64,000 nt of DNA from the human T2T-CHM13v2.0 reference genome, Homo sapiens, in assembly GCF_009914755.1 (NCBI RefSeq), contig NC_060941.1; one strand, 5' to 3'. Positions 6,653-7,639 of this stretch are shown one piece after another. Each line of letters begins with the position of its first letter. Positions within the stretch are counted from its first letter, which is position 1. Both the position numbers and the translations under genes were made by a program. Under the pieces are notes generated by a model. That model was not told the DNA's origin. It ran no database searches and worked only from the letters and a program-made list of their open reading frames with translations.

Positions 6653-7081
6653 CTTGATGAAGTCTCTCAGACACTTCTCTTTGTACTGAACCCACTTCCG
6701 AATTGACTTCTCAAGAATAGATCCGGGCCAGGCGCGGTGGCTCACACCTGTAATCCCAGCACTTTGGGAAGCTGAGGTGGGCAGATCACGAGGTCAGGAG
6801 ATCAAGACCATCCTGCCCAACATGGTGAAAACCCATCGCTACTAAAAATACAAAAAAATTAGCTGAGCACGGTGGTGCGCACCTGTAGTCCCAGCTACTC
6901 GGGGAGGCTGAGGCAGGAGAATCGCTTGAACCCAGGAGGCAGAGGTTGCAGTGAGTTGAGATCGCACCATTGCACTCCAGCCTGGTAACAGATTAAGACT
7001 CTGTCTTAAAAAAAAAAAAGAAAGAAAGAAAGAAAGAAAAGATCCTATAACCTGAGCAGAAAAAATCATGGTCACCTCCAG
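6653..7081 (-). pseudogene. Inverted duplicate of GLP2R exon 2 and its acceptor, split by an Alu
   Basis: The reverse complements of 7081-7041 and 6724-6653 align without gaps to 7522-7629 (about 88/108 identical by hand count). Confidence 0.92.
6725..7040 (+). mobile_element. AluS (Sc-like) inserted into the inverted exon 2 copy
   Basis: TSD aagaa(t/a)agatcc at 6713-6724 and 7034-7045. Confidence 0.93.
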
Positions 7082-7551
7082 AGCAGAGAATCTGTCTACT
7101 CAGAGCCTTTGAGCCTTTGACTTTGGACCTGCAGATACCTGGGCAATGCAGGCTTCTGCAATCCTCTGGTCCTTCTGTCACATTGTTGCGTCTTAGTGTG
7201 ATGCGTCTCTCTTTGGGATCTACGTAGTCTTAGAAGCATGCAACTATTCATGTGGGAGGATGCAAAAGTTTAGGATAAGAATATTGCGTACTCTTGAAAT
7301 GTCAACTTCACTTAAAGGTTTTTAATTTTTTTTCATATTTGTATTAAAGCCAATATGATTAGGTTATGGAGTGAATGTAAAATTTGTATGTACTCTTAAG
7401 ATAGAACATAAGATGCTGAAGAAATGCCATTTCTTTGCTGTGGGCCATTGTGGGCACTTCAGTGGGAAGGTTGGAGAATCATGGTGTGAAGTGACAACAA
7501 GGCCACATCTGTGCTTGGTCACTGGGGGTGACCATGTTTTTGTTTGCTCAG

Positions 7552-7639
7552 GTTACAGGATCCCTCCTTGAGGAAACGACTCGGAAGTGGGCTCAGTACA
7601 AACAGGCATGTCTGAGAGACTTACTCAAGGAACCTTCTG
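7552..7639 (+). CDS. GLP2R: GLP2R coding exon 2 (VTGSLLEETTRKWAQYKQACLRDLLKEPS-G; extracellular domain helix), 88 nt, phase 0-1
   Basis: tttgctcag|GTTACAGGA ... CCTTCTG|gtaagc. The translation matches the GLP-2 receptor N-terminus. Confidence 0.97.

What the first reader, a model, noticed from the sequence alone, without database searches (positions are those of the whole stretch)
6653..7629. Inverted copy of exon 2 and its splice acceptor in intron 1: a possible cis-antisense hairpin over the 3' splice site
Seen: the reverse complement of 7041-7081 (ctggaggtgaccatgattttttctgctcaggttataggatc) matches 7522-7562 (ctgggggtgaccatgtttttgtttgctcaggttacaggatc) at 36/41. Two of the five differences become G-U pairs in RNA, so 38/41 positions can pair. 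This stem covers a branch-point-like gtgAc, the pyrimidine tract, the AG and the first 11 exonic nt, with a 440-nt loop. On the other side of the intervening Alu, the reverse complement of 6653-6724 matches exon 2 at 7558-7629 at 57/72 with no gaps. Overall this is about 81% over 108 nt, and I do not recognise it as a known interspersed repeat. Inference: the pre-mRNA can fold to mask the exon 2 acceptor. Skipping this 88-nt exon shifts the frame, so the element could tune receptor output through splicing efficiency or NMD, or act as an ADAR substrate. The acceptor-covering arm is better conserved (88%) than the exonic arm (79%). That would fit selection on pairing, but it is also expected if the exon itself has diverged.
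Basis: partly seen in the sequence, partly recalled or inferred. Interest (0 to 1): 0.85.

Follow-up and report, generated by a model that had tools for sequence, protein, structure and literature searches.

The report
Inverted exon-2 copy in GLP2R intron
Intron 1 of the human GLP2R gene holds an old, backwards 108-base copy of the start of exon 2 and its splice acceptor, which on paper folds the pre-mRNA into a strong hairpin over that splice site, but nothing yet shows that the cell uses it.

Summary
Window 6653-6724 and 7041-7081 are the two halves of one ungapped 108-nt inverted copy of 7522-7629, which is the last 30 nt of intron 1 plus the first 78 nt of exon 2. Identity is 88 of 108 positions. 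An Alu with a 12-nt target-site duplication later split the copy. T2T-CHM13 holds only these two copies, so this is a local inverted duplication and not an interspersed repeat. Folding predicts a very stable structure. The duplexes score -61 kcal/mol (acceptor arm) and -85 kcal/mol (exonic arm). The acceptor helix is present in every context I folded, and the AG is almost never unpaired (0.001 against 0.25-0.34 with shuffled arms). I found no sign that selection maintains the pairing. Transition mismatches split 5 G·U to 7 A·C. The arms' identities do not differ (p = 0.58). The Alu broke the helix. An inverted Alu in intron 2 competes with the exonic arm. Orthologues, RNA-seq, editing tables and structure probing were out of reach. 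Verdict: a real duplication fossil and a plausible but untested splice-site-masking or ADAR-substrate hairpin. It is a new member of a known kind and of moderate interest.

The parts
6653..6724 (-). Exonic arm of the inverted copy. Its reverse complement corresponds to exon 2 bases 7558-7629. The last 12 nt (6713-6724) are also the first copy of the Alu target-site duplication.
   Evidence: 57 of 72 Watson-Crick plus 3 G·U. Genome-wide E = 3.8e-8. The minus-strand translation of 24 aa still matches GLP-2 receptor chain 7d68_R at E = 3.5e-5.
6725..7033 (+). Alu element (body 6725-7007, A-rich/GAAA tail 7008-7033) inserted into the inverted copy.
   Evidence: Masked repeat 6722-7047 in RefSeq. 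Matches 28 other places in the window at 77-87% identity. Sub-threshold Metazoa_SRP hits at 6727-6841 and 6862-7009. 283-nt body with 9 CpG.
7034..7045 (+). Second copy of the 12-nt target-site duplication. It matches 6713-6724 at 11 of 12.
   Evidence: Read. Alu plus this copy is 321 nt, which equals the register offset between the two arms (6653+7629 against 7041+7562). Before the Alu arrived, the copy was therefore one ungapped block.
7041..7081 (-). Acceptor arm of the inverted copy. Its reverse complement corresponds to 7522-7562 (branch-point-like site, pyrimidine tract, AG and 11 exonic nt).
   Evidence: 36 of 41 Watson-Crick plus 2 G·U. Duplex -61.0 kcal/mol. 38 of 38 possible pairs are in the MFE in every context tried.
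7082..7521 (+). 440-nt spacer that forms the hairpin loop. Unique sequence.
   Evidence: The genome search gives only itself plus one weak 75-nt match on chromosome 2 (E = 1.5e-5).
7522..7551 (+). Last 30 nt of GLP2R intron 1: gtgAc (A at 7531), pyrimidine tract, AG at 7550-7551. This is the source of the acceptor arm.
   Evidence: Sequence and RefSeq exon start at 7552 (annotation given). Mean P(unpaired) is 0.083, against 0.30-0.41 with shuffled arms.
7552..7639 (+). GLP2R exon 2 (88 nt, coding, phase 0). Bases 7552-7629 are the duplicated part. It encodes the N-terminal helix region of the extracellular domain.
   Evidence: RefSeq annotation. The translation equals residues 80-108 of chain 7d68_R and aligns with the N-terminal segment of GLP-1 receptor extracellular-domain chains.
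8793..9012 (-). Inverted Alu in intron 2. It can pair with the Alu at 6725-7007 across exon 2 and so competes with the exonic arm.
   Evidence: 85.2% identity over 223 nt on the minus strand. In the 3.4-kb MFE, 195 nt of the intron 1 Alu pair here and the exonic arm has 0 of 60 pairs.

Best explanation
What it is (shown): a single, local inverted duplication of 108 bp. The source is the last 30 nt of intron 1 plus the first 78 nt of exon 2 of GLP2R. The copy sits 440 bp upstream of its source inside intron 1, in reverse orientation. It has drifted without coding constraint to 81.5% identity and was later split by an Alu insertion. How it arose (inferred): a one-off templated inverted insertion or fold-back repair event, not transposition. 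How it most likely works (inferred from folding only): in the pre-mRNA the upstream arm 7041-7081 is transcribed first. As soon as the acceptor emerges, the arm pairs with it in a 38-bp helix of about -61 kcal/mol. That helix buries the branch-point-like A, the pyrimidine tract and the AG. The helix can then extend over most of exon 2 through arm 6653-6724. I expect this to slow or partly block U2AF/U2 recognition of the exon 2 acceptor in a fraction of transcripts. The expected results are some exon 2 skipping (a frameshift, a premature stop and probably NMD) or delayed intron 1 removal. The helix would also be a substrate for ADAR. I think it is a tolerated by-product of the duplication and not a selected regulator.
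For: The duplication is real and unique. None of the other 12 GLP2R exon rows has a second match in the 64-kb window. In a survey of 73 internal coding exons with ±2 kb of flank, only GLP2R exon 2 had an inverted match below E = 1e-4. The arms are not masked as repeats, and Rfam finds nothing on them. The copy is older than the Alu, because 12-nt target-site duplications lie at 6713-6724 and 7034-7045 and both align to exon bases 7558-7569. The copy drifted neutrally: differences fall 6/4/6 over the three codon positions, and 10 of the 11 changed codons are non-synonymous. Folding gives duplex energies of -61.0 and -85.1 kcal/mol. In the 1.1-kb fold, mean pair probabilities are 0.96 (acceptor arm) and 0.89 (exonic arm). 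P(unpaired) at the AG is 0.001, against 0.25-0.34 in 4 shuffled-arm controls. The acceptor helix is complete once the transcript reaches 7565. In the 3.4-kb context, forcing the arm single-stranded costs 34.7 kcal/mol. For background, a published catalogue reports that stable complementary regions obstruct splice sites and are enriched for A-to-I editing, most strongly below -30 kcal/mol (passages of PMC8052449). An editing complementary sequence in an upstream intron is known for BLCAP (passages of PMC10404624). RefSeq also carries two Gnomon models that skip exon 2 together with other exons. These are predictions and count only as weak support.
Against: Exon 2 is part of the RefSeq Select transcript, so any block is at most partial. 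The same catalogue finds complementary regions depleted at active splice sites, so a strong helix at a working acceptor is atypical and may be resolved in vivo. There is no internal sign that selection keeps the pairing. Transition mismatches are 5 G·U against 7 A·C, the arms do not differ in identity (p = 0.58), and an Alu was tolerated in the middle of the helix. In the larger fold the exonic arm is displaced by an Alu-Alu duplex across exon 2. The structure with both arms is 17.6 kcal/mol less stable. MFE models ignore proteins, helicases and co-transcriptional spliceosome assembly. No paper found links GLP2R to editing, exon 2 splicing or exon skipping. GLP2R does not occur in the main text of three RNA-structure papers.
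Confidence: 0.55

Rival explanations
1. Inert fossil. The duplication is real, but in cells the helix does not persist. hnRNPs, U2AF and helicases on the nascent RNA keep the acceptor available, so deleting the copy would change nothing measurable.
For: Exon 2 is constitutive in the Select transcript. Complementary regions are depleted at active splice sites genome-wide (passages of PMC8052449). There is no excess of wobble-compatible changes (5 G·U against 7 A·C). The Alu insertion was tolerated. Nothing on this appears in the literature searched.
Against: The predicted helix is far stronger than the catalogue's strongest class. It scores -61 kcal/mol against a cut-off of -30. It forms in every folding context tried. 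Its arms are only 440 nt apart, and the upstream arm is made first. Inverted Alu pairs of similar identity at greater distances are reported to form duplexes in cells (passages of PMC13019944).
Confidence: 0.33
2. Selected regulator. The hairpin is maintained by selection as a built-in brake on exon 2 splicing that sets GLP-2 receptor output through NMD, or as an editing complementary sequence for recoding exon 2.
For: The geometry is exactly that of a splice-site-masking stem and of an exon/ECS duplex (ECS background). 88% of the acceptor arm is still complementary although the copy is older than an Alu that has itself diverged (median 83.2% identity to 21 other near-full-length Alus in the window). 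However, constraint on the real acceptor alone could explain that figure.
Against: No pairing-specific signal was found (5 G·U against 7 A·C; arm difference p = 0.58). The helix was interrupted by an Alu. The two exonic A·C mismatches with the A in the exon (7575 and 7608) lie at third codon positions of GAA and GCA, where a change to G is synonymous. No reported editing or regulated exon 2 splicing of GLP2R was found.
Confidence: 0.1
3. Chance similarity, or two members of an interspersed repeat or transposon terminal inverted repeat that happens to overlap exon 2.
For: None beyond the general abundance of repeats here. An Alu sits between the arms, and an old interspersed repeat starts about 9 nt after the exon 2 donor.
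Against: Only two copies exist in the 3.1-Gb genome, with E = 3.8e-8 genome-wide. The arms are not masked. The source is a coding exon whose peptide aligns with the GLP-1 receptor N-terminal segment. The tool warns that very common words are skipped and that closed regions are not shown.
Confidence: 0.02

Closest known systems
Pairs of conserved complementary regions (PCCRs): long-range pre-mRNA structures that obstruct splice sites (Kalmykova et al. 2021, PMC8052449; I read passages only)
   Same: Two complementary stretches in one pre-mRNA, hundreds of nt apart, with one arm over a splice site. The predicted effects are obstruction of that site and enrichment of A-to-I editing in very stable duplexes.
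   Different: Here one arm is the exon and its own acceptor, and the other arm is a recognisable inverted duplicate of it. The energy (-61 and -85 kcal/mol) is far beyond their strongest class (below -30). The site is an active, constitutive acceptor, where such structures are reported to be depleted. Conservation, which defines a PCCR, could not be tested. Their search space reaches only 10 nt into exons, so the exonic arm lies outside it.
[quoted passage not shown]
   Same: An intronic sequence complementary to an adjacent coding exon forms a duplex before splicing. As in BLCAP, the complementary sequence lies in the upstream intron.
   Different: No editing site is known in GLP2R exon 2 in anything I could search. 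The duplex also covers the splice acceptor. The two A·C mismatches with the A on the exon side fall at synonymous positions.
Inverted Alu pairs that loop out exons (PMC13019027 and PMC13019944; I read passages only)
   Same: Exon 2 is also flanked by such a pair: 6725-7007 on the + strand and 8793-9012 on the - strand. This pair forms in the 3.4-kb MFE.
   Different: The exon-copy hairpin does not loop the exon out. It pairs with the exon and its acceptor directly. It is single-copy and not repeat-derived. The Alu pair and the exonic arm are mutually exclusive in a nested fold.
Short local stem-loops at splice sites, such as the MAPT exon 10 5' splice-site stem (recalled; I saw only the listing of PMC13606898)
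   Same: Base pairing that hides a splice signal and shifts exon inclusion.
   Different: Those stems are a few base pairs long, local, and proven by disease mutations. This one is 38 + 60 potential pairs with a 440-nt loop, and it is untested.

Membership tests
Local inverted duplication (pseudo-exon fossil) | Significant sequence homology to a nearby source, in reverse orientation and collinear | tested here: met
   88 of 108 positions identical with no gaps once the Alu and one target-site copy are set aside. E = 9e-14 and 1.6e-10 within ±2 kb.
Local inverted duplication (pseudo-exon fossil) | Not a member of a dispersed repeat family | tested here: met
   The whole-genome search returns only the exon and the copy. 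The arms are not masked. Caveat: closed regions are not shown and very common words are skipped.
Local inverted duplication (pseudo-exon fossil) | The copy evolves without coding constraint | tested here: met
   The 16 exonic differences fall 6/4/6 over the codon positions, and 10 of 11 changed codons are non-synonymous. The frame is still open over the 24 codons of 6653-6724, which is not unusual for so short a stretch.
Splice-site-occluding long-range RNA structure (PCCR type) | Stable complementarity (-15 kcal/mol or lower) between two regions of one pre-mRNA, overlapping a splice site | tested here: met
   -61.0 kcal/mol over the acceptor. Mean pair probability 0.96. Present in all contexts folded.
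Splice-site-occluding long-range RNA structure (PCCR type) | Both arms conserved across vertebrates, or compensatory substitutions | not testable with these tools
   No mammalian genomes other than this reference are reachable. As an internal proxy, G·U against A·C among transition mismatches is 5 against 7, which shows no excess.
Splice-site-occluding long-range RNA structure (PCCR type) | Experimental support for the duplex and an effect on splicing | not testable with these tools
   Sequencing reads are off. GLP2R has 0 occurrences in the main text of PMC8052449, PMC13019027 and PMC13019944. Supplements are closed.
ADAR exon/ECS recoding substrate | An intronic sequence pairs with the edited exon | tested here: met
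   Arm 6653-6724 pairs with 7558-7629: 60 of 72 positions can pair, at -85.1 kcal/mol. This is displaced in the 3.4-kb MFE.
ADAR exon/ECS recoding substrate | Documented A-to-I editing in the exon | not testable with these tools
   The search 'GLP2R' + 'RNA editing' found 10 papers, of which 8 were listed, and none is about GLP2R editing. Editing databases are not available here.
Interspersed repeat or transposon terminal inverted repeats | Many dispersed copies in the genome | tested here: not met
   Two copies only. By contrast, the repeat just 3' of exon 2 gave 535 first-look candidates.
circRNA-promoting reverse-complementary matches | One arm in each intron flanking the circularised exon | tested here: not met
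   One arm of the exon copy is the exon and acceptor itself. Only the separate Alu pair (6725-7007 and 8793-9012) has this geometry.

The most novel reading that the evidence does not exclude
The inverted exon copy is a self-made cis-antisense brake. By pairing with the exon 2 acceptor straight after transcription, it sets how much productive GLP-2 receptor mRNA is made, with the rest skipping exon 2 and going to NMD. Its grip would be modulated by ADAR editing, by helicases, or by the competing inverted-Alu duplex across exon 2. In this reading, a one-off inverted duplication of an exon was co-opted as a splicing rheostat in a drug-target receptor gene, and it may be lineage-specific.
Probability: 0.1. 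Interest if true: 0.65.

Novelty: new member of a known kind. Interest (0 to 1): 0.4.

Why it matters
GLP2R encodes the receptor for GLP-2. From my own knowledge, it is expressed at low levels in few cell types and is the target of GLP-2 analogue drugs. If the hairpin limits exon 2 splicing, three things would follow. It would be a built-in, sequence-defined limiter of receptor output. Variants or antisense oligonucleotides in the arm could raise or lower receptor levels. And it would be a clean natural example of a splicing-regulatory or ADAR-substrate duplex born in one step from an inverted copy of the exon itself. If it is inert, it still matters as a caution: a predicted -61 kcal/mol helix over an active acceptor can be tolerated. 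It would then be a good negative control for structure-based splicing predictors.

Tried and rejected
Interspersed repeat or transposon inverted termini. Rejected, because there are only two copies genome-wide and the arms are unmasked.

Known RNA family on the arms. Rejected. The Rfam E-value scan of 6000-8200 gave only Alu-type sub-threshold hits and one chance-level hit at 7060-7119 (E = 0.85).

Selection on pairing inferred from arm identities. Rejected as unsupported (Fisher p = 0.58; 5 G·U against 7 A·C).

A larger palindrome. Rejected.

How rare is this arrangement? I planned a survey of 100 windows of 20 kb on chr17. Only the first 10 kb of 20 windows was delivered. The survey therefore covers 73 exons including GLP2R's own. 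One of the 73 (GLP2R exon 2) has a strong inverted match. Two have marginal inverted matches: MYH2, 29 nt, E = 5.6e-4, and RECQL5, a 16-nt palindrome, E = 8e-4. Two FLII exons match each other directly. This is too small for a genome-wide frequency.

Orthologue dating and polarising the 10 amino-acid differences. Not possible. No other mammalian genome is reachable. An exon-sized query to the search for homologous proteins cannot return full-length receptors because of its length filter. A spliced protein may not be typed. I therefore used 0 of its 3 searches.

Dating rests on divergence only. The JC distance is 0.213. The copy is older than the Alu, whose median identity to 21 other near-full-length Alus in the window is 83.2%. 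With recalled neutral rates of about 1-2.2e-9 per site per year, the age is roughly 50-100 million years if both sides drift, and more if the source is constrained. My impression that the Alu is of the S type comes from memory of diagnostic positions and from no call.

Literature. (GLP2R with splicing, editing, splice-variant and exon-skipping terms) gave nothing relevant. One search showed only a table row listing a mouse N-terminally truncated GLP2R variant. One search was badly designed (it did not require 'GLP2R') and was useless. Supplements of PMC8052449, PMC13019027 and PMC13019944 may list this locus, and I could not see them.
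Full report
**1. The observation**

- In the window sequence, the repeat finder reports two inverted pairs. One is 6653-6724 with 7558-7629 (72 nt, 79% complementary). The other is 7034-7081 with 7522-7569 (48 nt, 83%).
- In the sense RNA the acceptor arm has 36 Watson-Crick pairs, 2 G·U and 3 mismatches. The exonic arm has 57 Watson-Crick pairs, 3 G·U and 12 mismatches.
- Together the arms cover 108 distinct source positions (7522-7629) with 20 differences, 12 transitions and 8 transversions. That is 81.5% identity.

Chance is excluded.
- The 72-nt arm alone scores E = 3.8e-8 against the whole 3.1-Gb genome.
- Within ±2 kb the two arms score 9e-14 and 1.6e-10.

**2. Anatomy**

- Exon 1 of GLP2R ends three bases before the window, so intron 1 is 7,554 nt and exon 2 is 7552-7639.
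- The block between the arms is an Alu on the + strand, with body 6725-7007 and an A-rich/GAAA tail to 7033. Three results support this.
  - RefSeq masks 6722-7047.
  - It matches 28 other places in the window at 77-87% identity.
  - It gives sub-threshold Metazoa_SRP hits at 6727-6841 and 6862-7009.
- The Alu is flanked by a 12-nt target-site duplication at 6713-6724 and 7034-7045, identical at 11 of 12. Both copies align to exon bases 7558-7569.
- The Alu plus one target-site copy is 321 nt. This is exactly the register shift between the two arms.
- So before the Alu arrived the copy was one ungapped 108-nt block, and the copy is older than the Alu.
- The duplicated segment is the last 30 nt of intron 1 plus the first 78 of the 88 exonic nt. 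It stops 10 nt short of the donor, so it contains no exon-exon junction. It was therefore copied from DNA or unspliced RNA and not from mRNA.

**3. What it is not**

- It is not an interspersed repeat.
  - Searching the whole reference with either the exon side or the copy side returns only those two places.
  - The 440-nt spacer is unique apart from one weak 75-nt match on chromosome 2.
  - The arms are not in the masked-repeat list, although that list omits stretches under 100 nt.
  - As a contrast, the sequence just 3' of the exon 2 donor is an old repeat with 535 first-look candidates.
- No Rfam family matches the arms.
- None of the other 12 GLP2R exon rows has a second match in the 64-kb window at E ≤ 1e-2.
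- I surveyed 73 internal coding exons that had ±2 kb of flank available. They came from the window plus twenty 10-kb chr17 loci.
  - Only GLP2R exon 2 had an inverted match below E = 1e-4.
  - Two exons had marginal inverted hits (E = 5.6e-4 and 8e-4).
  - Two FLII exons matched each other directly.

**4. State of the copy and its age**

- Exon 2 encodes residues 80-108 of the solved GLP-2 receptor chain 7d68_R. It aligns with the N-terminal segment of GLP-1 receptor extracellular-domain chains.
- Read on the minus strand, 6653-6724 still gives an open 24-codon frame that matches 7d68_R at E = 3.5e-5.
- The 16 exonic differences fall 6/4/6 over the three codon positions, and 10 of the 11 changed codons are non-synonymous. 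This is what a copy drifting without coding constraint should look like.
- The Jukes-Cantor distance is 0.213 overall, 0.147 in the intronic part and 0.24 in the exonic part.
- With recalled neutral rates of about 1-2.2e-9 per site per year, the age is roughly 50-100 million years if both sides drift freely. It is more if the real exon and acceptor are constrained.
- The Alu gives a lower bound. It has 9 CpG and a median 83.2% identity to 21 other near-full-length Alus in the window.
- I could not name the Alu subfamily with a tool. No other mammalian genome was reachable, so I could not date the copy by presence or absence.

**5. Folding**

- Duplex energies are -61.0 kcal/mol for the acceptor arm and -85.1 kcal/mol for the exonic arm.
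- In a 1.1-kb fold (6600-7700), both arms are in the MFE.
  - 38 of 38 and 53 of 60 possible pairs are present.
  - Mean pair probabilities are 0.96 and 0.89.
- I compared mean probabilities of being unpaired with four controls in which only the two arms were shuffled.

| Region | Wild type | Shuffled-arm controls |
|---|---|---|
| 7522-7551 | 0.083 | 0.30-0.41 |
| AG ± 3 | 0.001 | 0.25-0.34 |

- The 5' splice site is not masked. Its unpaired probability is 0.44 in the wild type and 0.16-0.40 in the controls.
- I grew the transcript from 6600. The acceptor helix has 15 of 22 possible pairs at transcript end 7545, and is complete (38 of 38) by 7565. The exonic arm has 54 of 60 pairs by 7640.
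- The helix has uninterrupted runs of 13 pairs and 15 pairs. The 13-pair run covers the AG and the 3' end of the pyrimidine tract. The 15-pair run covers the gtgAc (structure string, coordinates).

**6. A competitor**

The Alu inside the copy is on the + strand. An Alu on the - strand lies at 8793-9012 in intron 2, with 85.2% identity over 223 nt. Exon 2 is therefore also flanked by an inverted Alu pair.

| 3.4-kb fold (5800-9200) | Energy (kcal/mol) | Difference from free MFE |
|---|---|---|
| Free MFE | -1352.3 | n/a |
| Exonic arm forced | -1334.7 | 17.6 less stable |
| Arm 7041-7081 forced single-stranded | -1317.6 | 34.7 less stable |

- In the free MFE, 195 nt of the intron 1 Alu pair with the intron 2 Alu. 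The exonic arm then has 0 of 60 pairs, because the two structures cannot nest. The acceptor arm keeps 38 of 38 pairs.
- The acceptor helix is therefore the robust part.
- The exonic extension should form first during transcription, and can later be displaced by the Alu-Alu duplex.

**7. Tests for selection on pairing**

Within one genome I could run only weak tests, and all were negative.
- Among the 12 transition differences, 5 give G·U, which still pairs, and 7 give A·C, which does not. That is the even split expected under neutrality.
- The helix tolerated a 321-nt insertion.
- The relatively high identity of the acceptor arm is explained just as well by constraint on the real splice signals.

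**8. Literature**

- I found no paper linking GLP2R to exon 2 alternative splicing, splice variants of this kind, RNA editing or exon skipping. One table row lists a mouse N-terminally truncated variant.
- Passages of Kalmykova et al. 2021 (PMC8052449) make four relevant points.
  - They are depleted at active splice sites.
  - They are enriched in A-to-I sites, most strongly below -30 kcal/mol.
  - Their search space extends only 10 nt into exons.
- Passages of PMC13019027 and PMC13019944 describe inverted Alu pairs and loop-out exon skipping.
- GLP2R occurs 0 times in the main texts of these three structure papers (PMC8052449, PMC13019027, PMC13019944). Their supplements, where a locus list would be, were closed.

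**9. Interpretation**

Shown:
- There is a unique, old, local inverted duplication of the exon 2 acceptor region.
- It was later split by an Alu.
- Its RNA has a very strong predicted helix over the acceptor.

Inferred:
- It arose by a single templated inverted insertion or fold-back repair event.
- In cells the helix forms in a fraction of transcripts and slows or partly blocks use of the exon 2 acceptor.
- Exon 2 skipping shifts the frame, with a stop about 53 codons on, so those transcripts would probably be lost to NMD.
- The duplex could also be edited by ADAR. The acceptor A (7550) lies inside a perfect 13-bp run.
- RefSeq carries Gnomon models that skip exon 2 together with exon 4, or exons 2-4, in frame. 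These are predictions and count only as weak support.

I judge a selected regulatory role unlikely (about 0.1), an incidental measurable effect plausible, and complete inertness a serious rival (about 0.33).

**10. Verdict**

The feature is real and unusual in form. It belongs to known kinds (splice-site-masking long-range structure, ECS-like exon/intron duplex) and is not new in principle. Its function is untested. The decisive steps are orthologue alignments, junction and editing counts in gut RNA-seq, duplex-capture data, and a minigene with deletion and compensatory rescue.

Noticed in passing
window 6725-7007 (+) and 8793-9012 (-): Exon 2 is flanked by an inverted Alu pair (85.2% identity over 223 nt). 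In the 3.4-kb MFE the two Alus pair across exon 2 and displace the exonic arm of the exon-copy hairpin. This is the geometry that recent papers describe for loop-out exon skipping and circRNA formation.
   Followed up: partly
window 7648-7820: An old interspersed repeat starts about 9 nt after the exon 2 donor. It gave 535 first-look candidates genome-wide, of which 40 were scored: the query itself plus 39 others at 72-82% identity. It is not in the list of masked repeats of 100 nt or more, and no tool named it. The duplicated segment ends inside the exon and does not include it.
   Followed up: partly
GLP2R transcripts, window-wide: RefSeq Gnomon models XM_054317816.1 (skips exon 2 and the 122-nt exon at 16238-16359, 210 nt in total, in frame) and XM_054317817.1 (skips three exons, 315 nt, in frame) both omit exon 2. 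XM_054317818.1 starts at exon 2. I could not see their read support.
   Followed up: no
window 6227-6286, 6396-6455, 6929-6988 (-); 6328-6379, 6860-6912 (+): Sub-threshold Rfam hits to mir-3135 and mir-1268 (plus mir-1285 at 6388-6465) lie inside the Alus. They are almost certainly Alu-derived family resemblance and not miRNA genes.
   Followed up: no
window 7008-7033: The Alu tail has become an A-run followed by a short (GAAA)n microsatellite directly next to the acceptor arm. A length change here would alter the junction between the two helices.
   Followed up: no
window 7335-7408: Part of the otherwise unique 440-nt spacer has one weak match on chromosome 2 (75 nt, 77% identity, E = 1.5e-5). 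Its origin is unknown.
   Followed up: no
L012 (chr17:18192738-18193632): In the control survey, two FLII exons match each other directly (43 nt, 79% identity). This is presumably internal repeat structure of the protein and is unrelated to the finding.
   Followed up: no
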